A stretch of 64,000 nt of DNA, taken from the NCBI GenBank assembly GCA_052327205.1, contig CM126207.1, positions 258,106,001 through 258,170,000 on the forward strand, in the 5' to 3' direction. The translations under genes were made by a program, and so were the position numbers. This stretch comes from Somniosus microcephalus (taxonomy: Eukaryota). Position 1 is the stretch's first letter. Each line of letters opens with the position of its first letter. Below the pieces are notes generated by a model. That model was given only the letters and a program-made list of their open reading frames with translations, searched no databases and was not told the DNA's origin. Below are positions 931 to 56,416 of the stretch, in pieces.

Positions 931-2599
931 TCGAGCCTTAATACGGTTCAGCTCTCCCTAAAGAATCTGGTGTCCGCGGGGGGAGAAGAGGCGGGAACGG
1001 GGTGCGTGGTAAATGTAAGTACTCCAAAGAAAGACGGGGAGTCGGACATCTCAGTAAGCAGGAGGGGGCAAGACAAGGAGAGGGTGCAAGAGGCAGGAGC
1101 CTTAAAGGCGCAGCAGGATGGGAGCGGCGAGACAAAGACGCCAGAAGGGAACAATATAGGTGTGCCATTGTCCCAGAGAGAGAAGGATCAGGGAGCAAGG
1201 GTCAGAGGTGGAGATGAGGTCAAAAGGAGTGGCACTGTTGGAGAAACCGCGATAGCAGGAAGTCTCTCTATGGGAGATGATGTATCTGATGGGGAGCAGG
1301 ATTATGTATCTGACGGGAAGCAGGCACAGAGGGTTACAGAAGAGCTTGAGAGTGAGGAATTAGAGGGGGACAGAGACATTGAAGTGGGGGGTGTGGTGGC
1401 ATCATGTGGAAAAGGATAGGTTAGTGAGGGGCAGAAGGATGGAGAAAGGGCAGCTCCTTGGCCCAAACTTAATGCAAGGAAGAGGCTGAAACAGTAGGGA
1501 AGGTTCAAACAGGAGGTGAAAAAGAGTCGGAGGCTGCAGGAAAATGCAACAGCTAGCCGAAAAGTTGGGAAGGAGCATGAGAGGAGGGAAGGGCCAGAGA
1601 TTAAATGATGGGGAGATTATCAGGCATACTTCCCTTTTTCGGAGCCATGATTACATTGTTCTTGATTAATGTGAACGGACTAAGGGGTGTGAAGAAATTG
1701 CAGCAGTTGTTGCAGGGTTTTAAAGGCATGGACTTGTGTCTGCAAGAAACCTTTTGGGATGAGGATATCCTAGAAAGAGTTCAGAAGGTTTGGAAGGGAG
1801 AGGTGTTTGCAAGTTGTGCAAACAATAACCGTAGACGGGTGGCTGTTTTGGTGAGTCCGTCCATGAAAGAGAATGTTGTCTTGATGGACAAGGACACTGA
1901 GGGGAGATTTTTATGGCTAAGGGTAAAAATGGAGGAATTTAATTGCGATCTCTTTAATATCTATGCACCGAACGACCATTGCAAGCATCGCAAGTTTTTT
2001 CGGGGGTTATTCACTGAAGTGGCAGAGGTGGAAAATCCTTGTATAGTGGGGCATTTTAATGTATTTTTATCTCGTGTGGACATTTCAGTCCAGATGACCA
2101 TTAAGGATGATAATTCCAGAGGGATGATTGTAAAAATTATGGCAAATTTAAATTTGAGAGACTTATGGAGGGACCGGAACCCCATATAAAGGGAGTTCTC
2201 CAGAACAGGTTGGGTGGGTGATGTTTTAAAACAGAGCCGTATAGATTTTGTGTTAATGCGGGAAGGGTTAAGTTCTGAGGTGATGGAGATTTATTATAAA
2301 AAAGTATTTTTTAGTGACCACTCGGCTTTGGCTCTTAGAATTCGGAACAACAGAGTTAAGATCGGTTCAGGGGTGTGGATTTTAAACAATCAATACCTGA
2401 AAGAAATTGCTTATAAAGAAGGGATTTTAAATATAATAAAGAATGCTCAGAAGGAACCTTTGTTCTTGAAAGAAAGAAGAGTTTGGTGGGACAATTTCAA
2501 ATATGAGGTAAAAGTTTTTTTGATACGTTATGGGAAAAAGAGAGCGGCAGCTAACTGGGGTCGAGAAGAGAATATAAACAAAAGGTTTACGGATGTCTG

Positions 2600-2834
2600 T
2601 GATGCGCCATCAATTACTCAAAAGACTGAGGTTGAGCGAGTAACAATCAGGCTTTTATTAACTAAAGAATGAAGGTCTAGTCTCGAGTGGTCGACCCGTC
2701 CAGAATACTAAGGGACTGGGAGGTAGTCACTTATATACCTGGAATAGTGGGAGGAGTCAGCCGAGGCATGTCCAGACCTGTACCTAGTGGAATACACATA
2801 CAGACACAGACAGGTATGACAGTGGTTTACCACA
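2600..2834 (-). repeat. 3' LTR of Gypsy element 1
   Basis: Identical to 5833-6067. TATATAA and AATAAA on the minus strand. Confidence 0.97.
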
Positions 2835-2877
2835 TTCACCCCTTGTTTAAAAATGAGTCCGGCGGGGTGAAGTGTAT

Positions 2878-5808
2878 TTAAAAGTTCGTGTATTGGAGTC
2901 TCTCCGGAGGTCTTGTCTGCCGCTGTGATCGACGTGGCGACGGCAGGGGTGGTGGAGCTTCCGGCATCGCGTCCCGTGTAGGCTGGGGCCCTGGAGTGTA
3001 GTCCTCGTGGGTGACGGGCTCAGGCGTGCCGGCTGCTGGGGTTGGATATCGGGTCGTGGGGGGGGGTGGTAATGGGTAGTGGGTTACAGCGGTCCCCGAG
3101 GGTGCGAGGTCTCGTATGGAGACTGTGTCCTCCCGCCCGTCCGGGTACGCAATGTAAGCGTACTGGGGGTTGGCGTGGAGGAGGTCGACCCTCTCGACCA
3201 GGGGGTCCGTTTTATTGGCCCTCACGTGTCTTCTCAGTAGTACCGGCCCTGGGGACGTCAGCCATGGCGGTAGCGATGTCCCCGATGTGGACTTCCTTGG
3301 GAAGACAAACATTTTCTCGTGAGGGGTGGCATTGGTGGCAGTGCAGAGAAGTGACCGAATCGAGTGGAGCGCATCGGGGAGCACCTCCTGCCAGCGGGAG
3401 GTCGGAAGGCCCCTAGACTTTAAGGCTAGTAGGGCGGCCTTCCAAACAGTTGCATTCTCTCTTTCCACCTGTCCGTTCCCCCGGGGGTTGTAACTGGTGG
3501 TCCTGCTTGTGGCTATACCCCTAGCGAGCAGGTACTGGCGGAGTTCGTCGCTCATAAACGATGAGCCCCGGTCGCTATGGATATAGCTGGGGAAACCGAA
3601 CAGGGTGAAGAGGCTGTTCAGAGATTTAATGACCGTGGCACTGGTCATGTCCGGGCAGGGGATAGCGAACGGGAACCGGGAGTACTCGTCAATGATGTTG
3701 AGGAAGTACACATTGCGGTCGGAGGAGGGGAGAGGCCCTTTGAAATCGACGCTCAGGCGTTCGAAAGGGCGAGTGGCTTTTATCAGGTGGGCTCTGTCTG
3801 GTCTATAAAAGTGCGGTTTGCACTCAGCGCAGACTTGGCAGTTCTTGGTCATGGTCCTGACCTCCTCGATGGAGTAAGGCAGGTTGCGGGCCTTGATGAA
3901 GTGGAAGAACCTGGTGACCCCCGGGTGGCAGAGGTCATTGTGGAGGGCCCTCAGCCTATCGATCTGCGCGCTGGCGCAGGTGCCACGCGATAGGGCATCT
4001 GGGGGTTCATTGAGCTTCCCAGGCCGGTACAAGATCTCGTAATTGTAGGTGGAAAGTTCGATTCTCCACCTCAAGATCTTGTCATTTTTGATTTTGCCCC
4101 TCTGCTTGTTGTTGAACATAAAAGCAACTGAACGCTGGTCAGTGAGCAGGGTAAATCGTTTTCCGGCCAGGTAGTGCCTCCAATGACGCACAGCCTCCAC
4201 GATAGCCTGGGCCTCCTTCTCGACCGCGGAGTGTCTGGTCTCTGGGCCCTGGAGGGTTCGTGAGAAGAATGCCACAGGTCTCCCCGCCTGATTAAGGGTG
4301 GCGGCCAGAGCGAAGTCGGACGCATCGCTTTCCACCTGGAAGGGGATGGATTCGTCCACTGCGTGCATGGTGGCTTTGGCAATGTCTTCCTTGATACGGT
4401 GGAAGGCTAAGCGGGCCTCTGCCGTCACGGGAAAAGAGGTGGACTTGATCAGCGGACGGGCTTTGTCTGCATAGTAGGGGACCCACTGAGCGTAGTAGGA
4501 AAAAAACCCTAGGCACCTCTTCAGAGCTTTTAGGCAGTGGGGCAGTGGGAGTTCCATAAGGGGACGCATCCGGTCCGGGTCGGGACCGATGACCCCGTGT
4601 TCTACAGCACAGCCAAGGATGGCGAGGCAGTCTGTGCGGAATATGCACTTCTCCTTGTTATATGTCAGGTTCAGGAGTTGGGCGGTGCGGAGGAATTTCT
4701 CGAGGTTTGCGTCATGGTCCTGCAAGTCATGGCCGCAGATGGTCACATTATCTAGGTAAGGGAAAGTGGCCTGCAGCTCGTTTTGATCGACCATCCGGTC
4801 CATCTCCCTTTGGAAGACGGAGACCCCATTGGTAACGCCGAAGGGAACCCTAAGGAAGTGATAGAGGCGGCCGTTTGCCTCAAAAGCAGTATACTGGCGG
4901 TCTTCAGGGCTGATGGGGAGCTGGTGGTACGCTGATTTCAGGTCAATGGTCGAAAAGACGCGGTACTGCGCGATCTGGTTGACCATGTCAGCTATGCGGG
5001 GGAGTGGGTAGGCATCCAGCAGGGTGTAGCGGTTTATTGTTTGGCTGTAGTCGATGACCAGGCGTTGTTTCTCGCCGGTCTTAACGACCACAACCTGGGC
5101 TCGCCAGGGGCTGGAGCTGCCCTCAATAATCCCCTCCTTCAGGAGCCGTTCCACTTCGGTTTTGATGAAAACCCTGTCCCCGGCACTGTTGGGCTGTGGC
5201 TGGGGTGGCACGGTGCTATGGGGCTGTCCTACCGTGTCCCAGGTTGTCGTTCCCCGCGGCGTCCACGGTGCAGAGGAGTAGGCATCCATGCCCCGGAAGG
5301 CTGCGTCCAGCGTTAGTGCGATGTCGGAGGCTTTGTCGAGGGTGAGGTCACTCTGCTCCAGCAGTCGCTGTCGGGTGTAGTTGGACCTGTGGCCCGCTAC
5401 GAAGGCATCCCGGATCAGTTCCTCCATGTACTTAGTGGGCGTTACCGCCTTACACCCACAGGCCCGGCCAAGCACGGACAGTGCTTGGAGGTATTCCTCA
5501 GTCGATTCCCCAGGTTGTTGCTTGCGACTCCCCAGAAGGTGCCTAGCATATACTTCGTTCACAGGGCGCGTGTACTGGGTCTTGAGGAGCTGGAGGGCGG
5601 CTGTGTACGAGGTCGCGTCCCGGATGACTGAGTACACTCGGTGGTTCACCTTGGAGAACAGGACAGACAGTTTGTCCGCATCCGTTTCGACCGCAGTGGA
5701 GGCAGTCAGGAATGTCTCGAAGCACGTGAGCCAGTGAGCAAACTTGGTGGAAGCGTCCGCTTCCCGACTGTCCAGGTCCAGGCATGCTGGTGTGAGGATC
5801 TTCTCCAT
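2878..5808 (-). CDS. Gag-RT-RNaseH-integrase polyprotein (976 aa) lacking nucleocapsid zinc knuckles and aspartic protease
   Basis: Gag-like N-terminus. RT motifs SPWRAQVVVV, IDLKSAYHQ, YLDN. RNase H motifs SDAS, EKEA, TDQ. Integrase H..CHPG, C..C and DFKGP/SDRG/VER motifs. No D[ST]G protease motif or CCHC between Gag and RT. Confidence 0.93.
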   Translation of the reverse strand: MEKILTPACLDLDSREADASTKFAHWLTCFETFLTASTAVETDADKLSVLFSKVNHRVYSVIRDATSYTAALQLLKTQYTRPVNEVYARHLLGSRKQQPGESTEEYLQALSVLGRACGCKAVTPTKYMEELIRDAFVAGHRSNYTRQRLLEQSDLTLDKASDIALTLDAAFRGMDAYSSAPWTPRGTTTWDTVGQPHSTVPPQPQPNSAGDRVFIKTEVERLLKEGIIEGSSSPWRAQVVVVKTGEKQRLVIDYSQTINRYTLLDAYPLPRIADMVNQIAQYRVFSTIDLKSAYHQLPISPEDRQYTAFEANGRLYHFLRVPFGVTNGVSVFQREMDRMVDQNELQATFPYLDNVTICGHDLQDHDANLEKFLRTAQLLNLTYNKEKCIFRTDCLAILGCAVEHGVIGPDPDRMRPLMELPLPHCLKALKRCLGFFSYYAQWVPYYADKARPLIKSTSFPVTAEARLAFHRIKEDIAKATMHAVDESIPFQVESDASDFALAATLNQAGRPVAFFSRTLQGPETRHSAVEKEAQAIVEAVRHWRHYLAGKRFTLLTDQRSVAFMFNNKQRGKIKNDKILRWRIELSTYNYEILYRPGKLNEPPDALSRGTCASAQIDRLRALHNDLCHPGVTRFFHFIKARNLPYSIEEVRTMTKNCQVCAECKPHFYRPDRAHLIKATRPFERLSVDFKGPLPSSDRNVYFLNIIDEYSRFPFAIPCPDMTSATVIKSLNSLFTLFGFPSYIHSDRGSSFMSDELRQYLLARGIATSRTTSYNPRGNGQVERENATVWKAALLALKSRGLPTSRWQEVLPDALHSIRSLLCTATNATPHEKMFVFPRKSTSGTSLPPWLTSPGPVLLRRHVRANKTDPLVERVDLLHANPQYAYIAYPDGREDTVSIRDLAPSGTAVTHYPLPPPPTTRYPTPAAGTPEPVTHEDYTPGPQPTRDAMPEAPPPLPSPRRSQRQTRPPERLQYTNF

Positions 5809-5832
5809 TATAAAAAATTTAGTTAATAAAAT

Positions 5833-6067
5833 TGATGCGCCATCAATTACTCAAAAGACTGAGGTTGAGCGAGTAACAATCAGGCTTTTATTAACTAAAG
5901 AATGAAGGTCTAGTCTCGAGTGGTCGACCCGTCCAGAATACTAAGGGACTGGGAGGTAGTCACTTATATACCTGGAATAGTGGGAGGAGTCAGCCGAGGC
6001 ATGTCCAGACCTGTACCTAGTGGAATACACATACAGACACAGACAGGTATGACAGTGGTTTACCACA
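5833..6067 (-). repeat. 5' LTR of Gypsy element 1
   Basis: Identical to 2600-2834. Confidence 0.97.
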
Positions 6068-9000
6068 GTCTGTAAAGCAGTTGACGGAGGAGATAAGGGA
6101 GCTGAGACTAAGTTCCGTGTGCTAAAGGAAGAGTGGGAATTATTGCAAGCTGAAAAATGCAAGGGGGCCATTCTCCGTGCAAAGGCTAGAGATGCATTAG
6201 AGGGCGAAAGATGCACTAGATATTTTCTAGAGCAAGAGACGCTGCGACAGAGATTATCATTAATTGGAGAGTTGAAGGTTGGGGAGAAGATCATTCATGA
6301 AAGTGGGGAGATTTTAGAGGTGGCAAGCACCTTTTATCAAGAGTTATACACAAAAGAAGACATTTCCAATTTGGCGATGGAGAAGGTTGGTTAAAGAAGA
6401 TTTAAAGGAGGATGAGAGAAGCACGTGTGACAAAGAAGTAGGATTAGTGGAAGTAAAAGTAGCAATATGTGGAATGAAGGGGGGGGGTGGGGGAAAGCCC
6501 AGGGTCCGATGGACTAAGTGCAGAATTTTATAAAGAATTTTAAGATTTTAAGTCCATTGCTCTTAGAAGTTTTTAAGGAAATTAAAATTGAGGGAAGCCT
6601 GGCCCCATCTATGAGGAGAGGTGTCATAAGCTTAGCTTCTAAAAATAAAGGGGATAGAAGGGATCTGAAGAATTGGCGGCCCATCACATTATTAAATGTG
6701 GATTATAAGATCTTGGCGAGGGTTATGGCAAATCGTTTGAAGGAGGTGTTACCGCAGATAGTTTTGCCCTCTCAGTCCTATAGAGTCATAGGCTGGGACA
6801 TCGCAGACTCTGTGGTCTCACTCCGAGATGCGATAGAGCTCATGGAAGAGAGTGGGAGGGAGGCTTATGTATTAAAGATAGATCAAGAGAAAGCCTTTGA
6901 TAGGGTCTCTCATGAGTTTTTATTGAAGGTTTTGGAAGCATTTGGTTTCGGGGAAAATTTCATTGAGTGGATAAGGATTTTTTATTCAAACATATTTAGC
7001 TGTGTTAAATGTAATGGTTTTTTACCCAAGTATTTTCTGATACAGAGATCAGTGAGACAGGGTTGTCCCCTGTCCCCATTGTTGTACACATTGGTAGCAG
7101 AACCATTAGATTACATGATGTGAAAGAAACAAGGTGTAGTTGGGATTGTTGTTCCCAGTTCTGGGCTGGTGTCGGTGATACACCAATATGCAGATGACAC
7201 AACCTTAACATTGAGAAATGGGGAGTCAGTGAGAATAGCTATGGATGTAGTGGAGAAATATTGTAGAGCTTCAGGAGCCAGAGTGAATTATATATACTAA
7301 GTCCCAATGCCTGGTTGCGGGAAGGGGTAGGGGGGAATGGTTGGGGGAAAGTCCCTTTAAGGTGGTGGAGGTTTTGGAAGTTCTGGGGGTGCATATCGGG
7401 TGCAAGAAAGACAGGGATGAAATGGATCGATTAAATTGGGAACCGAAGGTTATGAAAATTAAAAAGATTTTGGGAAGATTGGAAAGAAGGTGGTTGAAAG
7501 TGCAAGGAAGAGCGACAGTAGTGTCTGCTCTCCTGCTATCTAAGCTATGGTACTTATTGACGGTGGAGGATATTCCTGAGTGGGCGGAAAAGTCCATCCG
7601 AGAGGCTTGTGTGAGGTTTTTATGGGAAGGGAAACCAGCCTTGGTGGCTTACAATACCATCATTGGATGGAGAAATCAGGGAGGACTCAATTTCCCAGAT
7701 ATTGATTTGAAGAAAAAATCCTTTAGAATCAAATGGGTGAAGAGATTTCCTCAGAAGTCAAATATAAGTTTTTGGAAGAGTTGTTTTGAGCATTTTTAAA
7801 AACGAAGTGGGATAGGAGGGCAGGGGATATTGTATATGGAATACAATAATATATTTTTGAAATCAATTAAACTTCTCCCTAGGTTTTATAAGGGGGTTGT
7901 AGAGACTTGGACCCAATTTTTTAAAAATGTGCAGTTTATGCCCAAGGGGGCTGAGGAATTTTTAGAACAGCCCTTATTTTTGAACAGGTGGGTCAACATT
8001 GAAGGAGAGGTTTTATTTAATCAAGCTTTTATAAAAGCTGGTATTATATGTGTGAAAGATGTATTATACGAGGTAATTCCAGGTTGGTTGCCGGAAGTGA
8101 TAGTGAGGGACATGGTGTGGGAGGAGGATCAGGAGGTAGAGGAAAAAGCAATAGGGATCATGTATGAGAAGATTGTGAGGGCAATGCCACAGGATTGGAT
8201 GGAAGAAATAAATGCGGAAATCTCCAAAGGAAGTAAAATGCGTCCCGCTTTTCCAAGCTTTCTGCTGGAGAAAGGGGGAGAGTTGGTCCAATTTGACAAC
8301 TGTAATACTCGAGATTTCTATGAGGTATTCAGAGAATGGAGATTCAAGACACCTGCTGGTCAGGAGTTTTGGCAGAGTATATACCCACAGCTGGACTTCA
8401 ACAGGATTTGGAAGGGTGTGTGGGTGAATTTTAAATGTCCAGATTGGATTGAACTGGATTTCAAATTGGCTCATAACCGGATTTTTACCATGACGGTCTT
8501 GTGCAAGATTGGGCGAGTGGAGGAGGCAACTTGCCCAGTGTGTGGGACACGGGATGAGACTCTGTCCCATTTACTGGTGTTATGTCCGGAGTTAAATGAT
8601 TTTAAGTACTATGTTCGACAGTTGTGTGAAGTTTTTTTGCTGGGTGGGGACCGAGGAGCGAGAATGGGAATCCCGTGGGACTCAATTTTGAGATGGGGAT
8701 TGCAGGAGAGTCTGCCCGAGTCTAGCGGAGTGGCAATTAATTTAATGTTTAGTTTGGCTAGTTTCGTGATTGTGCAAAGAAGGAATGCTCTGTTTTTTAA
8801 GGGGAGGAGAATCAATCTAAAAGAGTATTTTAAATATAAGCTAAAAGATCATTATAAGGCTCTGTGGGTGTTTTATTCAGAAAGGAATTTAAAGATAGTA
8901 TTTTACAATCAATTTTTAAAGTACAATCGATTAATATATGTTACAGGAGACAAATTAAACTTCAGGTTTTGATGTTAAAATGTGGTGGCGGAATGGCTGT

Positions 9001-27461: not shown

Positions 27462-30400
27462 TGTTGTATCCGTGTGTTAATGGAGACACGGAATGCAGGA
27501 GTTGATTTAACAAGTGTTTACTGAACAAAGTCTGGAGGTGAACTAAACTATACAAGACGCTATACAGGCTTATATACCCGAGTGGTCACTACCGGTACTA
27601 CAGTACACAAGGGCTTCAAAAAAACATAGTTCCTCTTAATTCCTCCCCTTTTGCACTACAATTCCTCCCCTTTTAGATAAATAGTACATAACATTTTAAG
27701 TAATCATTAATTAACATGTTTACAAGAACAATAATCTACACATTTGCTGAAGTTAATCAATTACAAATTTAGTCTCTCTGGAGGCTTCCTGACTCGGTCC
27801 GGATAACGCCTCGGTGGTGTAGTAGGTTTCGGTGGTGTAGTAGGTTCTTTTGGCAAGGTCGATTCGGCTTGAATGCCAGTGTTGGGTTCATCTGGTTCCA
27901 GTATCACCGGATCGGAGGTAGATACTATGGGTATCCCTGCTTCATCATTAGGCATATAGAGTTGTGGTGTAGGTTGTCCCTTTTCGGATGACTCTATGAT
28001 CTGGTCAGCATGGCGCCTTATTATGCTTTCTCCAATGTCCACGGTATACATCAGCGGTCCTAGTCGTGTGCAAATAGTTCCAGGCTGCCATTTCTCGGTA
28101 CGGTAGTCCCGGGCCAAAACTTGTTGACCTATCTGGAAGGTTCTAGTTGGCCTTTCATTCATGCCTTGAAATTGCCGGTTCTCTACGTCCCTTCTTATGT
28201 TTGGCTTGATCAAATCCAGCCGGCATCTTAGTCTTCTATTGAAAAACATCATGGCGGGGGTTTGGTTTGTAACCACATGTGTTGCATTCCTGTACGCAAA
28301 CAAGAAGTTATCTACCTTATGTTGTAGATTTATGTCTTCATTACCCATGGCCTTTATGGCCTTCTTGAAGGTCTGGACAAACCTTTCAGCTAATCCATTG
28401 GTGGCGGGATGGTATGGGGCGGACATGTAGTGCTTAACCCCATTGTTTTTTAAGAACTTCCTGAATTCTTTGGATACAAATTGCGGTCCATTATCAGAAC
28501 AGATCTGTTCAGGCAACCCATTCCTGGCAAATATGGTCTTTAATACTGTGATGGTTTTTTCCGTGGTGGTGGAGGACATCTTTATTACCTCCGGCCACTT
28601 GGAGTGTGCATCAACCGCGATTAAGAACATTGAGTCCATAAACGGACCAGCAAAGTCGATGTGTACCCTTTGCTATGGAGATGAGGGCCTCTCCCATGGA
28701 TGTAGAGGGGCTTGTGGTGGGGCGTTTTGGACCTTCTGGCATCCTAGACAGCTCTTGGTCATTTCTTCGATGTCTCCATCGATACCTGGCCACCACACAA
28801 ACGCTTTGGCTAAGTTCTTCATTTTCACTCCACCCAGATGCCCCTCGTGAAGCTCCTTTAGTACTTTATCCTGGAGTTTGGGTGGAATCACCACTCTGGA
28901 TCCACACATCAAGGTTCCTCAGCACACTGACAGCTGTTCTCTTCTTTGCGAGAATGCTGGCAACAGTGGTTCGCCATGTGCTGGCCATCCTTTCACCGTT
29001 AAATCGTAGACTCGTGAGAGAGTCGGGTCATTTCTCGTTTCCTTTTCAATGGTAGAATTTGTCACTGGTAGACATTCCACTATGGTCGAGTGGAACATCT
29101 CCACTGGGTCCACTGTAGGTGCCTCTTCTACCGTTGGCAACGATAGGCATGATAAACCATCAGCATTCCCATGCTGTTTTGTTCCTTTGTATTCTATGTC
29201 ATATTGGTGTGCCCCTAGGAAAAGGGACCACCTCTGTAGCCTTTGCGCTGTCATAATGGGAACACCCTTTTTAGGGTTGAATATGGAGACGAGGGGTTGA
29301 TGGTCAGTCAACAAGGTAAATTTTTGTCCGTGTAGGTAATGGTTGAATTTCTTCACTCCCCACACCAGGCTGAGTGCCTCCCTGTCGATCTGGGCATAGT
29401 TACGCTCAGCTGAGTTCAATGAGCATGATGCAAAAGCTATCGGCCGCTCCGAGCCATCAGGGAATCTATGCGATAATACCGCTCCCACGCCGTAAGGGGA
29501 TGCATCGCACGCCAGTCTGATTGGCAGTGATGGGTTGTAATGAGCCAACACTTCCTTGGACGTGATCAAGCCTTTGCATTTACGGAAGGCACGTTTACAG
29601 TCTTCGCTCCATTTCCAAATTACTCCCGTTTGTAGCAGTGCGTTAAGAGGGTGCAGAACCGTTGACAAGTTCGGTAAAAATTTATGATAGTAATTTATTA
29701 ATCCCAGGAACGACCTTAATTGTGAGACATTTTCAGGCGCTGGGGCTTTTATGACCGCTTCAATTTTTTCAGGTGACTTATGCAACCCTTCTTCGTTAAT
29801 GACATGGCCACAATATGATATTTGTTTCTGGAAAAATTCGCACTTGGGGCGATTTGCTCGTAAGCCCCGTTATCTCAGCCTCGTGAGCACCTGCTCCAAA
29901 TTGGCAAGGTGCTCGTTGTCATTTTCTCCTGTTACAAGGATGTCATCTAGGTAGCATTGAGTCCCCGGAATCCCTTGCAGGACTTGCTCCATAGCTCTTT
30001 GCCAGATAGCTGGAGCTGATGCTACTCCGAAAACCAGTCGATTGTACTGGTACAGGCCTTTTTGTGTGTTTATTGTGAGATACTTTTTAGAGGCCTCCTC
30101 AACCTCCAGCTGTAGCTATGCCTGTGCCAAGTCAATTTTGGTGAAACGTTTCCCTCCGGATAGTGAGGCGAAAATATCTTCTATCCTCGGAAGAGGATAC
30201 TGTACCGTGTGAAGAACCGGGTTTACAGTCACCTTGAAGTCCCCACAGATGCGAATTTTTCTCTGTTCTTCAGATTTATCATCATTCAACGTTTTCTTCA
30301 TGACCGGGACGATGGGTGTTGCCCACTCGCTCCAATCTACCTTGGATAACACGCCTGCTTTTTCCAAATTCTCCAGCTCTGCCTCGACTACTGGACGAAT

Positions 30401-32421
30401 TGCGTATGGCACCGGCCTTGCCTTAAAAAACTTGGGAATTGCCGCATCTTCCACTTTTATTGAGGCGGTGGCGCCTTTCAGGGTTCCTAGTTCCTGTTGA
30501 AACACTTCTTTGGCGTTGGCCAAGATGTCTTTTAATCGTCCAGGTATGACGTCATCATCATTTTTTTTCTTACTGGTCACCGTCAGTGCCTGAATGGAGT
30601 GCCAGTCTAAACATATCTTTCTGATCCATTCACGTCCCAACAACGGTGGACCACCATCTTGCAGAACGTATAAATACAACTTCTGTATTTCCTTGCCGTT
30701 GTATACAACAGGCACCCTTATTTTCCCTCTGGGGTATACTTTCTGCCCCGTATATGTCTTCAAGATAATGGATGTGTCTTTCAAAGGTATATGCGGAAAT
30801 AGCCGCTCGTAATCCCGTCGATTTATGACGGTCAGAGCTGATCCTGTATCTAGCTCCATTTTAACTGGGGACCCCGCTATCGTGAGGGTAACCCAAATGG
30901 TCTGGTAATCTTCTTTGGCAATTATATTATGTAATTTGAGACAGCTTAGTCTCTTGTTTCCGGAGTCGCTATCACTCTTCTGGTCTTCGGAGCTACTGTC
31001 CGTCATCATTTGTACCTTTCTGTACTTTTCCTTATTGACCTTTTTACTGTCAGTGGATTTTTTTCCAGATCGGCATACACGTGCAATGTGTCCCATCTTT
31101 CCACATTGCCTGCATGCTTTGTCCTTGAACCAGCAGTCCCTCTGGTCGTGGGTGGATCTGCCGCAGCGATAACATCTCTCGAAACTCCGTGTCATTTCAT
31201 GGGTGCCGAAGTCCTGTGGCTTTTGCTCTATCTCTGCAGCTCCTCTTGCTGCTGCTTCGTATGATACAGCCACACTGAAAGCCTTGTCCAGTGTCAAATC
31301 TTTCTCAGAAAGTAGCCTTTTCTGTGTTCCTTTGCTTAGGAGACCGCAGACGAATTTGTCTCGTAGAGAATCTGCCAGTCCTGCCCCGAATTGGCAGTGC
31401 TTTGACAGCTTTCGTAATTCGGTGAGGTAATCAGCGTTACTTTCATTCTTGTGCTGATTCCTCCTGAAGAATTTGAATCATTCCGCTATCAGCAGCGGTG
31501 TTGGGTTTAAGTGCTCCTGTAGGGAATCAACAATCTCCTTAAAATTCTTGTCCATCGGTTTGGCTGGAGTGATCAAGTTTCGTAACAGCCCGTATGTCCT
31601 TGCGCCCATCAGATTTAGAAGTACCGATGCCTTTTTATCATCCGCTACTTCATTCGCCTTGCAATATACCTCCACTCTTTCCACATATGTGGTCCAATCC
31701 TCTATATCACTATCAAAAGCAGTAATATTGCCAGTCTTAGGCATCCTGAAAATCAAAAATGGCGCCTCCCGCGCTTTCCCTTCTTCCCTGCCGAGTCAAA
31801 ATGGCGCCTCCCACGCTTTCCCGCTGCTGCCGCTGCTGCCAATGCTGTTCTCCGCGGTTTTTATTTACATATATATTTTGAACAGTTTCTCCGTCACTTG
31901 GAGAATCGTTCCCGTCGGACTCTCTGGGACTTTCCCCTCCCTCTACCTGGTCCGAACGCCGACCTGCTTTGCAGCGCCGGCCGTCTCCTGAGTGCTCCAC
32001 CCTCTGTCTCTGTTTGCTTCTGCCTTCCGACTCGTTGTCCGGCCCCGCTGCAGAGCCACATGATCGAGCCCCAGCCCGCCGCCCAGGAAGGATCAGTGCA
32101 CTACCTGCCACCAGCCCGTTTAGCTGGTGAAACCACAGTTTTTTTTTTCTTCGACCTTCGTCTGAGGAATCAATCTCCTTGAGGTGCTGCCGAATTGCAG
32201 GTAAGTCCGTTTCTAACTTGCCGCCACTGTTGTATCCGTGTGTTAATGGAGACACGGAATGCAGGAGTTGATTTAACAAGTGTTTACTGAACAAAGTCTG
32301 GAGGTGAACTAAACTATACAAGATGCTATACAGGCTTATATACCCGAGTGGTCACTACCGGTACTACAGTACACAAGGGCTTCAAAAAAACATAGTTCCT
32401 CTTAAAGGTACATACACTACA
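27462..32421 (-). mobile_element. Ty3/Gypsy (Mag-like) LTR retrotransposon, full length
   Basis: LTRs 27462-27660 and 32228-32421 (TG...CA), 5-bp TSD CCTCC, PBS-like TGGCGGCAAG, PPT AAAAGGGGAGGAAT. Confidence 0.95.
27761..31756 (-). pseudogene. gag-pol of Gypsy element 2: a single frame with five in-frame stops
   Basis: Two CCHC knuckles, protease LDTGS, RT YLDD, RNase H CDAS, integrase HHCC and SDNG. Stops at 31478, 30116, 29870, 28919 and 28673 all lie in one frame. Confidence 0.92.
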
Positions 32422-52560: not shown

Positions 52561-55431
52561 CTAATCCCATATTCCAGCATTTGGTCCGTAGCCTTGTATG
52601 CTATGGCATTTCAAGTGCTCATCCAAATGCTTCTTAAATGTTGTGAGGGTTCCTGCCTCCACAACCCTTTCAGGCAGTGAGTTCCAGACTCCAACCACCC
52701 TCTGGGTGAAAAAGTTCTTTCTCAAATCCCCTCTAAACCTCCCGCCCTTTACCTTGAATCTATGCCCCCTAGTTATTGACCCCTCTACTAAGGGAAAAAG
52801 CTCCTCAGCATCCATCCTATCTATGCCCCTCATTATTTTGTACACCTCAATCAGGTCCCCCCTCAGCCTCCTCTGCTCCAAGGAAAACAAACCCAATCTG
52901 CCCAGTCTCTCTTCATAGCTGAAGTGCTCCAGCCCTGGTAACATCCTGGTGAACCTCCTCTGCACCCTCTCTAACGCGATCACATCCTTCCTGTAGTGTG
53001 GCGACCAGAACTGCACACAGTATTCCAGCTGTGGCCTAACCAGTGTTTTATACAGCTCCATCATAACCTCCTTGCTCTTATATTCAATGCCTCGGCTAAT
53101 GAAGGCAAGTATCCCATATGCCTTTTTGACCACCTTATCCACCTGTTCCGCCGCCTTCAGGGATCTGTGTACTTGCACACCCAGATCGCTCTGACCTTCC
53201 GTCTTGCCTAGGGTCTTTCCATTCATTGTGTATTCCCTTGCCTTGTTAGTCCCCCCAAAGTGCATCACCTCGCACTTTTCCGGGTTAAATTCCATCTGCC
53301 ACTGTTCCGCCCATCTGACCAACCCATCTATATCGTCCTGCAGACTGAGGCTACCCTCCTCGCTATTTACCACCCTACCAATTTTTGTATCATCCGCGAA
53401 CTTACTGATCATACCTTTTACATTCATATCCAAGTCATTAATGTAGACCACAAACAGCAAGGGACCCAGCACCGATCCCTGTGGTACCCCACTGGCCACA
53501 GGCTTCCAGTCACAAAAACAACCTTCGACCATCACCCTCTGCCTTCTGCCACTAAGCCAGTTTTGTATCCAATGTGCCAAGGCACCCTGGATTCCATGGG
53601 CTCTTACCTTCTTGACCAGTCTCCTGTGCGGGACTTTATCGAAGGCCTTACTGAAATCCATGTATACCACATCCACTGCGTTACCCTCATCCACACACCT
53701 AGTCACCCCCTCAAAAAATTCAATCAAATTAGTCAGACATGATCTTCCCTTGACAAAGCCATGTTGACTATCCCTGATTAATCCTTGCCTCTCCAAGTGG
53801 AGACAAATTTTGTCCCTCAGAATTTTTTCCAATAATTTTCCTACCACTGATGTTAGGCTCACTGGCCTGTAGTTCCCCGGTTTTTCCCTACTTCCCTTCT
53901 TGAATAATGGTACTACATTAGCGGTTCTCCAGTCCTCTGGCACATCCCCTGTGGCCAGAGAGGTCCTGAATATATGTGTTAGAGCCCCCGCAATCTCTTC
54001 CTTTGCCTCACACAGCAGCCTGGGATACATTTCATCCGGGCCTGGGGATTTATCCATTTTTAGGCCAGCTAAAACCGCCAATACCTCCTCCCTCTCGATG
54101 TTAATATGTTCGAGCATATCACAGTCCCCCCGCCCTATTTCTATGTCTACATCGCCCTTCTCCATAGTGAAAACAGATGCAAAATATTCATTTAGAACCC
54201 ATCCTACATCTTCCGGCTCCACACACAGATTGCCACTTTTGTCCCTAATGGGCCCTATTTTTTCCCTAGTTATCCTCTTACCCTTAATATACTTATAAAA
54301 CATCTTAGGATTTTCCTTTATTTTGCTCGCCAGTGTTATTTCATGGCCCCTCCTTGATCTCCTAATTTCTTTTTTAAGTATCCCCCTGCACTTTTTGTAC
54401 TCCTCTAGGGCTTCCTCCGTCTTTAGCCTTTTGTATCTACCAAAAGCCCTCCTTTTTTTCCTAATCCATTCTCGTATATCCCCTGACATCCAAGGTTCCC
54501 TGTGGTTTTTGGAACCACTCTTGACCTTTATGGGAACATGTTGCCATTGTATGATCTCACTCTCCCTTCTGAAAGCCTCCCATTGCTCCGATGCGGATTT
54601 TCCTACAAGTAGCTGATCCCAGTCCATTTTGGCCAGATCCTGCCTTATCCTATTAAAATCGGCCTTCCCCCAATTTAGAACCTTTTTTTCCGGCCCATCC
54701 CTGTCCTTTTCCATGACCACCTTAAATCTTACCATATTATGGTCACTATCACCAAAGTGCTCACCTACTAGCACTTTTTCCACTTGGCCGGCCACATTCC
54801 CTAGAATTAGGTCCAGTACCGCCCCCTCTCTTGTAGGACTTTCTACATGCTGGCTCAAAAAGCTCTCCTGGATGCACTTTAAGAATTCTACACCCTCTGA
54901 GCCTTTCACACTCTGACTATCCCAGTTAATATTGGGGAAGTTGAAATCCCCCATTATTATTACCCTATTATTTGCACATTTCTCTGAGATTTGCCTACAT
55001 ATCTGTTCCTCTATCTCCCCCTGACTGTTTGGAGGCCTATAGTACACTCCCAGCAAAGTGCTTGCCCCCTTTTTGTTTTTAAGCTCCACCCATATGGCCT
55101 CATTAGAGGAACCTGCTAATATATCATCCCTCCTTACTGCAGTAATTGACTCCTTAATTAATATTGCGACACCCCCTCCTCTTATACCTCCCCCTCTGTC
55201 TCGCCTGAAGATTCTGTACCCCGGAATATTGAGCTGCCAGTCTTGCCCCTCCCTCAACCATGTCTCCGTGATAGCAACAATATCATACTCCCATGTGTTT
55301 ATCAACACCTTCAGTTCATCCACCTTATTTGCAAGACTCCTTGCATTAAAATAGATGCCATCCAGCCTTGCCCTTATATATTTGCCCTGTCTACCAAGCT
55401 GACTTGTTTTTTTCTCTATAATTGGCAGCAC
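52561..55431 (-). CDS. CR1 ORF2: AP endonuclease plus reverse transcriptase, uninterrupted (956 aa)
   Basis: [50 protein letters not shown]. Confidence 0.95.
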   Translation of the reverse strand: MLPIIEKKTSQLGRQGKYIRARLDGIYFNARSLANKVDELKVLINTWEYDIVAITETWLREGQDWQLNIPGYRIFRRDRGGGIRGGGVAILIKESITAVRRDDILAGSSNEAIWVELKNKKGASTLLGVYYRPPNSQGEIEEQICRQISEKCANNRVIIMGDFNFPNINWDSQSVKGSEGVEFLKCIQESFLSQHVESPTREGAVLDLILGNVAGQVEKVLVGEHFGDSDHNMVRFKVVMEKDRDGPEKKVLNWGKADFNRIRQDLAKMDWDQLLVGKSASEQWEAFRRESEIIQWQHVPIKVKSGSKNHREPWMSGDIREWIRKKRRAFGRYKRLKTEEALEEYKKCRGILKKEIRRSRRGHEITLASKIKENPKMFYKYIKGKRITREKIGPIRDKSGNLCVEPEDVGWVLNEYFASVFTMEKGDVDIEIGRGDCDMLEHINIEREEVLAVLAGLKMDKSPGPDEMYPRLLCEAKEEIAGALTHIFRTSLATGDVPEDWRTANVVPLFKKGSREKPGNYRPVSLTSVVGKLLEKILRDKICLHLERQGLIRDSQHGFVKGRSCLTNLIEFFEGVTRCVDEGNAVDVVYMDFSKAFDKVPHRRLVKKVRAHGIQGALAHWIQNWLSGRRQRVMVEGCFCDWKPVASGVPQGSVLGPLLFVVYINDLDMNVKGMISKFADDTKIGRVVNSEEGSLSLQDDIDGLVRWAEQWQMEFNPEKCEVMHFGGTNKAREYTMNGKTLGKTEGQSDLGVQVHRSLKAAEQVDKVVKKAYGILAFISRGIEYKSKEVMMELYKTLVRPQLEYCVQFWSPHYRKDVIALERVQRRFTRMLPGLEHFSYEERLGRLGLFSLEQRRLRGDLIEVYKIMRGIDRMDAEELFPLVEGSITRGHRFKVKGGRFRGDLRKNFFTQRVVGVWNSLPERVVEAGTLTTFKKHLDEHLKCHSIQGYGPNAGIWD

Positions 55432-55478
55432 ATCACCCCCTATTTCAGCTCCCCTCTGTATCCCATCCCCCTGCCAAG

Positions 55479-56416
55479 TTAGTTTAAACCCCCCCCAACA
55501 GTGCTAGCAAACCTCCCCGCAAGGATATTTGTCCCGCTCTGGTTCAGGTGCAACCCGTCCGACTTGTACAAGTCCCACCTTTCCCAGAAGCAGGCCCAGT
55601 GATCCAGGAAAGTAAAACCCTCCCCCCTACACCAACTCTTTAGCCACGCATTCATCTGCTCTATCCTCCCATTCCTATACTTACTAGCACGTGGCACTGG
55701 GAGTAATCCAGAGATTACAACCTTCGAGGTCCTGCTTTTTAATCTGTTACCTAGCTCCCTAAATTCTTGATGCAGGACCTCATCCCCCTTCCTTCCTATG
55801 TCGTTGGTCCCAATGTGGACCACGACCTCTGCCTGCTCACCCTCCCCCTTAAGAATGCCCTGTAGCCGCTCAGTGACATCCCAGACCCTGGCCCCAGGGA
55901 GGCAACAAAACATCCTGGAGTCACGTTTGCGGCCACAGAAACGCCTATCTGTTCCCCTTACGATAGAATCCCCTACCACTATTGCTCTCCCACTCTTTTT
56001 CCTCCCTTCCTGAGCAGCAGAAGCGTCCTGGTGCCAGGAAGCTGGCTGCTGCTGCCTTCCCCTGGTGAGTCATCCCCCTCAACAGTATCCAACTTGGTAT
56101 ACCTGTTTGAAAGGGGGATGTCCGCAGGGGTTCCCTGCACTTCCTGCCTGCCTCTGTTGCTCCACCTGATGGTCACCCCCTGTGCGGCCCTACCCTGAGG
56201 CATGAACAACTCGCTAAACGTGCTATCCACGACCCTCTCAGCATCGCGCATGCTCCAAAATTCATCCACCCGCAGCTCGAGCGCCGCAATGCGGTCTACA
56301 AGTAGCTGCAGCTGGATGCATTTCCCGCACACATGGTCGTCAGGGACACTGGCAGCGTCCCTGACTTCCCACATGGAGCAAGAGGAGCAGAACACGGGTC
56401 TGAACTCTCCTGCCAT
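55479..56416 (-). pseudogene. CR1 ORF1 (zinc finger/leucine zipper plus SGNH esterase) with one frameshift near 56000-56030
   Basis: CSSC...CGKC and zipper in 55979-56416. GDS, GTND and DGLH in 55479-55979, in a different frame. Confidence 0.88.

What the first reader, a model, noticed from the sequence alone, without database searches (positions are those of the whole stretch)
2878..5808. Protease-less, nucleocapsid-less Gag-RT-RH-IN fusion kept fully open in an element with identical LTRs
Seen: Gag runs directly into the RT N-terminus (…PQPQPN|SAGDRVFIKTEV…, junction ~5188). There are no CCHC knuckles or D[ST]G motif, yet 976 codons are open, the LTRs are identical and the TSD is intact. 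The RT motif is YLDN. Known: Gypsy polyproteins need the aspartic protease for maturation. Inference: either a recent one-off in-frame deletion, or a non-autonomous subfamily that amplifies with a helper's protease and could act as a defective-interfering element.
Basis: partly seen in the sequence, partly recalled or inferred. Interest (0 to 1): 0.7.

Follow-up and report, generated by a model that had tools for sequence, protein, structure and literature searches.

The report
One-off deletion in young Gypsy copy
One young copy of a jumping gene that has about 1,500 copies in this genome lacks an 897-letter piece, likely lost in a single copying slip that happened to keep the reading frame open; no second copy has the same gap, so the deletion itself is ordinary.

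Summary
In detail: a 3,468-bp Gypsy element with identical 235-bp LTRs, a 5-bp target duplication and one 976-codon ORF without zinc knuckles or protease. Sisters are 4,365 bp or longer and encode both. The window copy lacks 897 bp (299 codons) at a 3-nt microhomology, and the first 25 or more residues of RT are gone too. The junction occurs once in 6.4 Gb, even with 3 mismatches. Leader, gag, protease and RT markers each occur about 1,500 times, so there is no protease-less subfamily. The open frame needs no selection: 15 of 20 identical-LTR sisters are open; 6 of 100 sampled copies carry other large deletions (2 of 5 simple ones in frame); the three junctions tested are singletons. No read or contig bridging the junction was seen in four laid runs, a weak test. 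The odd features belong to the whole family: a YLDN active site, and a primer-site sequence that pairs with the element's own LTR, with compensating changes in 16 of 19 distant relatives (likely self-priming). The scan had noted that priming signature before on other DNA.

The parts
2595..2599 (.). Target-site duplication GTCTG, left
   Evidence: sequence
2600..2834 (-). 3' LTR, 235 bp, TG...CA, identical to the 5' LTR
2835..2848 (-). Purine-rich tract next to the 3' LTR (likely PPT)
   Evidence: sequence
2878..5808 (-). Single ORF, 976 aa: Gag N-terminal part fused to clipped RT, RNase H, integrase
3484..3954 (-). Integrase (H2C2 zinc domain and rve core, aa 619-775)
4045..4350 (-). RNase H (PF17917, aa 487-588)
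4609..5082 (-). RT core (PF00078, aa 243-400)
4747..4758 (-). YLDN active-site motif, shared by the family
5187..5189 (-). Deletion junction, 3-nt microhomology ACA; 897 bp absent relative to 4,365-bp sisters (both CCHC knuckles, linker, protease, start of RT)
5188..5808 (-). Retained Gag part (aa 1-207)
5818..5831 (-). 14 nt at the primer-site position, 1 nt after the 5' LTR; no TGG; complementary to LTR nt 169-182
5833..6067 (-). 5' LTR, 235 bp
5886..5899 (-). LTR segment holding AATAAA that is complementary to the primer-site position (candidate self-primer)
6068..6072 (.). Target-site duplication GTCTG, right
   Evidence: sequence
1605..8972 (+). Older broken LINE (RT and zf-RVT pieces; L1/Tx1-like by recalled resemblance) into whose ORF the element inserted

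Best explanation
This is a single young copy of a Gypsy family with about 1,500 copies, and it lacks 897 bp of its polyprotein gene, likely because reverse transcriptase slipped between two 3-nt matches while copying a full-length RNA. Shown: the size, frame and microhomology of the gap, its uniqueness, and the youth of the copy. Inferred: the shortened DNA kept both LTRs and was integrated by proteins made from intact RNA in the same particle. The frame stayed open because 897 is a multiple of three (one deletion in three) and the copy has had time for only one private substitution. Its own protein would lack nucleocapsid, protease and the start of RT, so it is predicted to be unable to package, mature or copy itself. 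Its cis signals are intact, so a helper could in principle move it, but it has left no second copy in this assembly. That the event is one-off is about 0.9 likely; that it happened during reverse transcription rather than after insertion is about two in three.
For: Gap 897 bp against 4,365-bp sisters, ACA on both sides. Junction: 1 hit exact, 1 with <=3 mismatches in 6.45 Gb; 1 full-length match among 40 scored of 716 candidates. Marker counts: leader 1,497, gag 1,516, protease 1,522, RT start 1,456. Nearest sampled sister differs at 12 of 3,468 sites; 1 site is private against 100 copies. Of the first 100 gag-marker copies on C1, 6 carry other deletions of 200 bp or more, all at different places; 2 of the 5 simple ones are in frame; the 3 junctions tested are singletons. 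Microhomology >=3 nt in 3 of those 5, against 5.8% for random breaks (p=0.002). The 5 deleted sisters with two whole LTRs are no older than average: summed LTR differences 5, against 9.8 expected if deletions arise at birth (p=0.13) and 13.1 if they accumulate with age (p=0.03).
Against: No contig or read bridging the junction was seen in the four runs laid, so the junction rests on the assembly alone. The age test has only 5 deletions, and L184 was left out of it. The 100 copies are the first on one contig, not a random draw, and deletions that remove the gag marker are missed. A 3-nt microhomology fits repair after insertion equally well. Only one assembly was searched; sisters with this junction could exist in other individuals.
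Confidence: 0.6

Rival explanations
1. One-off deletion after insertion: a full-length copy inserted, and microhomology-mediated repair of a DNA break then removed 897 bp.
For: 3-nt microhomology fits end joining; junction unique. Illegitimate recombination is a described source of truncated LTR elements (10.64898/2026.03.01.708851, passages).
Against: The copy is very young (identical LTRs, 1 private site), and deleted sisters are not older than average (p=0.03 against an age-proportional model, n=5).
Confidence: 0.3
2. Assembly artefact: the junction does not exist in the animal.
For: No bridging contig or read seen in X1, X2, X22, X23.
Against: Those contig sets also lack the window's letters at LINE positions 2240, 6240 and 6639, so they do not show this locus's private variants at all, and contigs drop rare variants. 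Assemblers do not normally join on 3 nt (general knowledge). Similar single deletions occur in sisters and as joints in public contigs at low depth.
Confidence: 0.05
3. Founder or member of a protease-less non-autonomous subfamily that borrows a helper's protease and may interfere with it.
For: LTRs, primer-site region and purine tract are intact. Intact sisters exist (16 of 100 open to the end, L094 among them) and protease-bearing family RNA is present in two RNA runs whose species may or may not be the host. Ty1 and Ty3 mini-elements move when proteins are supplied in trans (PMC4974528, passages). Five ray gene models join gag to RT without protease, two at the same point.
Against: Copy number 1; no deficit of the protease marker and no excess of the leader marker; three other deletions have not amplified either. 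The ray models are predicted genes with other junctions and their DNA could not be checked.
Confidence: 0.03
4. The fusion ORF is kept open by selection, as a host-useful or element-useful protein.
For: 976 open codons.
Against: 15 of 20 sisters with identical LTRs are open; the one private change is non-synonymous; no junction-bearing RNA seen (weak).
Confidence: 0.02

Closest known systems
Internally deleted (defective) copies of Ty3/Gypsy LTR retrotransposons
   Same: Both LTRs and cis signals kept, part of gag-pol lost, related to an intact family in the same genome (PMC3286476 and 10.64898/2026.03.01.708851, passages).
   Different: Only that the gap is in frame and the copy is young enough to be still open.
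Amplified non-autonomous LTR families (TR-GAG, BARE-2, RLG_Quinta; mini-Ty1/mini-Ty3 donors)
   Same: Depends on proteins in trans for any further movement.
   Different: Those are multi-copy families or engineered donors; TR-GAG types keep Gag/protease and lose the enzymes, the reverse of this copy; this junction has one copy.
Ty3 of Saccharomyces cerevisiae
   Same: Closest solved RT (4ol8, E=8e-50); sisters have the order Gag-PR-RT-RH-IN.
   Different: One ORF instead of two, two CCHC knuckles instead of one, YLDN instead of YLDD, no tRNA primer site.
Tf1/Tj1 and the Tf1/sushi group (self-primed Gypsy elements)
   Same: The sequence at the primer-site position is complementary to the element's own LTR (PMC4600332, PMC6317226, passages).
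   Different: No chromodomain found by Pfam; the pairing arm holds the AATAAA signal; the transcript start was not mapped, so priming is inferred only.
Ty1 RT mutant D211N (YXDD to YXDN)
   Same: Same substitution of the second aspartate.
   Different: In Ty1 it blocks transposition and cuts kpol 223-fold, with partial rescue by RNase H changes (PMC2148107, abstract and introduction); here it is the natural state of a family with recent insertions.

Membership tests
Ty3/Gypsy LTR retrotransposon | Two LTRs with TG...CA ends and a short target duplication | tested here: met
   235-bp LTRs, GTCTG
Ty3/Gypsy LTR retrotransposon | Order PR-RT-RH-IN | tested here: met
   In full-length sister L012; RT-RH-IN in the window copy
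Ty3/Gypsy LTR retrotransposon | RT of Ty3 type | tested here: met
   Best solved match Ty3 RT, E=8e-50
Autonomous Gypsy element | Aspartic protease and nucleocapsid present | tested here: not met
   Absent from the window copy, present in sisters
Trans-mobilised non-autonomous subfamily | Same derived junction at several loci with different target duplications | tested here: not met
   1 hit
Trans-mobilised non-autonomous subfamily | Cis signals intact and intact helpers in the genome | tested here: met
Defective-interfering element | Amplifies at the helper's expense | tested here: not met
   Marker counts equal within 5%
Defective-interfering element | Lowers helper activity | not testable with these tools
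   No functional data
Self-primed LTR elements (Tf1 type mechanism) | No tRNA-type site (TGG) after the 5' LTR; that position pairs with the LTR, with compensating changes across relatives | tested here: met
   14 bp here; 9-18 bp in 16 of 19 metagenome loci, at most 1 of 300 shuffles as long. Internal tRNA fragments were not screened.
Self-primed LTR elements (Tf1 type mechanism) | The pairing arm forms the RNA's 5' end or is released as primer | not tested
Tf1/sushi chromoviruses | Integrase chromodomain | tested here: not met
   No chromodomain family at E<=0.1
Mag lineage | Short LTRs, 4-5 kb, mostly 5-bp target duplication | tested here: met
   Compared with Table 1 of PMC3286476
Mag lineage | tRNA-Leu/Ser/Arg primer site as in mosquito Mag elements | tested here: not met
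Mag lineage | RT phylogeny places it in Mag | not tested
   No named reference sequences were on hand; clade left unassigned

The most novel reading that the evidence does not exclude
The deletion is a dead end, but its parent family is a recently active vertebrate member of a widespread animal Gypsy lineage, outside the chromoviruses, that primes reverse transcription with a piece of its own LTR RNA and copies itself with a YxDN polymerase site, the very change that stops Ty1 from transposing.
Probability: 0.6. Interest if true: 0.55.

Novelty: new member of a known kind. Interest (0 to 1): 0.2.

Why it matters
The deletion itself matters little: it is one of an estimated hundred or so single deletions in this family (6 of 100 sampled, about 1,500 copies), and it shows that an open fusion ORF between identical LTRs is no sign of selection or of a subfamily. 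The small sample hints that such deletions arise during reverse transcription and are not then amplified, although cis signals are intact. The family-level features would matter more if confirmed: a natural, mobile RT with YxDN would let one ask how the third catalytic aspartate can be spared, and an LTR-paired primer site would extend self-priming beyond the groups named in the passages I read.

Tried and rejected
Divergent protease in the linker: none; the segment is absent. Splicing as the source of the gap: by inspection of the breakpoints, no shift of the cut within the microhomology gives GT...AG on either strand. One genome-wide search for any short gag-to-RT distance could not be run, so other protease-less junctions were assessed only by marker counts and the 100-copy sample. 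Read support: the run search listed no RNA holder; laid runs were X1-X4 and X1, X2, X22, X23 (about 24% and 31% of the two RNA runs read); no bridging record was listed, 73 shorter pieces were not shown, and absence from contigs proves nothing. Ray gene models P0002, P0004, P0006, P0011, P0014 are single-member clusters; deletion cannot be told from a predicted intron without their DNA. YLDN as damage in this copy: rejected, it is the family state (91 of 100 copies, 6 unreadable). Literature: 'YLDN' and 'YXDN' with 'reverse transcriptase' gave 0 papers each; three searches on self-priming listed no title on this lineage, judged from listings only; the library lacks most subscription papers and no supplement was read, so this is not proof of absence from print. 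No earlier scan note matched the protein by sequence.

Full report
Observation. The element spans 2600-6067 on the minus strand: 3,468 bp, two identical 235-bp LTRs with TG...CA ends, GTCTG on both sides. It sits inside the ORF of an older, broken LINE whose pieces match RT and zf-RVT. One ORF, 2878-5808, is open for 976 codons; Pfam finds RT, RNase H and integrase, and no protease or zinc knuckle at E<=1. The best named protein relatives are from rays and a catshark, so the host is probably a cartilaginous fish (inference).

What is missing. Twelve sisters fetched from the same genome are 4,364-4,464 bp. Four of them are 4,365 bp with one long open frame; L012 encodes 1,275 aa with two CCHC knuckles and an LFDSGS protease (PF13975, E=9e-12). 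Against them the window copy has one gap of 897 bp, 299 codons, with ACA at both ends. It joins N207 to the residue that is S507 in the sister. The sister's match to MLV RT begins at residue 481, so the gap removes both knuckles, the linker, the protease and at least 25 residues of RT.

Is it a subfamily? A 30-mer across the junction has 1 exact match in 6.45 Gb, this locus; a 32-mer with up to 3 mismatches also has 1. A 121-bp search gave 1 full-length match among 40 scored of 716 candidates; the other 39 matched one half only. Exact 24-mers occur 1,497 times (LTR end plus leader), 1,516 (gag, before the gap), 1,522 (protease, inside the gap) and 1,456 (RT, after it). The family has at least 1,500 copies, with no shortage of protease and no surplus of leaders that would betray a large deleted derivative.

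Is the open frame more than chance? I fetched the first 100 of the 1,516 gag-marker matches, all on C1. Sixteen are open to the normal end; of 20 with both ends aligned and identical LTRs, 15 are open. Six carry deletions of 200 bp or more: L089 1,786, L094 258, L115 224, L164 525, L176 485 and L184, a complex loss of about 2.9 kb. Two of the five simple ones are in frame. L094 repeats the window's pattern in full: in frame, 1,189 open codons, identical LTRs, intact target duplication. One in 100 (95% interval 0.03-5.4%) scales to about 15 such copies in the genome. The junctions of L094, L089 and L164 are each found once with up to 2 mismatches; the other three were not tested. The window copy differs from its nearest sampled sister at 12 of 3,468 sites and has one private site, V to A. 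Youth and a one-in-three chance explain the frame.

How it arose. Microhomology of 3 nt or more marks 3 of the 5 simple sister deletions against 5.8% for random breaks (p=0.002; 4 of 6 with the window copy). That fits a template slip by RT or end joining after insertion. If deletions accumulated with age, deleted copies should have more diverged LTRs. The five with two whole LTRs sum to 5 differences, against 9.8 for a random draw from 86 copies (p=0.13) and 13.1 for an age-proportional model (p=0.03) (L184 left out). This weakly favours loss at birth. By analogy with Ty3, where the NC zinc finger is needed for packaging and PR for maturation, and where deleted elements move only with proteins in trans (PMC4974528, 12 passages), the fusion protein is predicted to be inactive and the copy to depend on helpers it has not, so far, used.

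Read support. Contigs of X1-X4 over 2000-6700 show other single joints in the family at low depth, for example 4864-5460 and 4822-5050. On 5154-5222 no listed contig piece of X1 or X2 crosses the junction, and the loose ends of RNA reads in X22 and X23 run on into the protease-bearing segment; first mates lie mostly on the plus strand, which in most stranded libraries means sense RNA. So full-length family RNA exists in that organism, which may or may not be the host, and the junction is unconfirmed. The test is weak: all four contig sets also lack the window's letters at LINE positions 2240, 6240 and 6639.

Family-level features, outside the finding. YLDN is read in 91 of the 100 copies, with synonymous codon variants; 3 differ and 6 are unreadable. 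Among the 120 listed homologues, 88 have xxDN, 30 xxDD and 2 were unreadable (query subtracted). In Ty1 the same change blocks transposition (PMC2148107, abstract and introduction). No TGG follows the 5' LTR; instead 14 nt starting 1 nt after it are complementary to LTR nt 169-182, which hold AATAAA, and both arms are unchanged in 85 of 100 copies. Of 79 metagenome loci I tested the 19 whose match starts at the protein's start with over 100 nt upstream: 16, about 12 distinct families, have a perfect 9-18-bp pairing in the same geometry with different letters, matched by at most 1 of 300 shuffles; 3 do not. This is the layout of Tf1-type self-priming (PMC4600332 and PMC6317226, 6 passages each); a hairpin that masks the 5' poly(A) signal is the rival, and no RNA end was mapped. 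I saw the pairing before consulting the scan's notes, which report the same signature in other genomes.

Comparison and verdict. The copy is an internally deleted member of a Gypsy family, a known kind (PMC3286476, 12 passages; 10.64898/2026.03.01.708851, 9 passages). The clade is unassigned: size and target duplication resemble mosquito Mag elements, the primer site does not, and the LTR start resembles the CsRN1 motif at 6 of 7 letters (PMC3601003, 12 passages). Earlier notes describe amplified pol-replaced Gypsy families in this genome (not checked), so trans-mobilisation may occur here, but not for this junction. Observation confirmed; the subfamily and defective-interfering reading is not supported; interest 0.2, most of it owed to the parent family.

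Noticed in passing
window 5818-5831 with 5886-5899; L215, L216, L220, L224-L228, L232, L252-L254, L257, L260, L269, L292: Primer-site position pairs with the element's own LTR around the AATAAA-like signal, with compensating changes across relatives; candidate self-priming.
   Followed up: partly
window 4747-4758: YLDN is the family state, and xxDN is found in 88 of 120 listed homologues while 30 have xxDD.
   Followed up: partly
L094 (G000:C1:21119773-21124623): Second young copy with an in-frame deletion (258 bp, second knuckle and linker lost), open ORF and identical LTRs; junction single.
   Followed up: yes
P0002, P0004, P0006, P0011, P0014: Ray gene models that join gag to RT without protease at other points; P0011 and P0014 share one junction. 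Real deletion or predicted intron is unknown.
   Followed up: partly
L152-L154 (G000:C1:312.85-312.88 Mb): Three copies about 15.7 kb apart with the same 3' flank CAGGT, probably a tandem duplication of the surrounding DNA.
   Followed up: no
L085-L184: Older copies (about 2% from L012) often carry 36-45-bp and about 50-bp insertions in the two proline-rich linkers; the youngest copies are the 4,365-bp form.
   Followed up: no
window 27761-31477 (-): A second, broken Gypsy-like element of another family, with two CCHC knuckles and a DTG protease.
   Followed up: no
window 52561-55503 (-): A 980-codon open frame that looks like a CR1/L2-type LINE ORF2 (recalled resemblance).
   Followed up: no
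window 14449-16915: Inverted repeat with 543-nt arms, 78% complementary, 1,381 nt apart.
   Followed up: no
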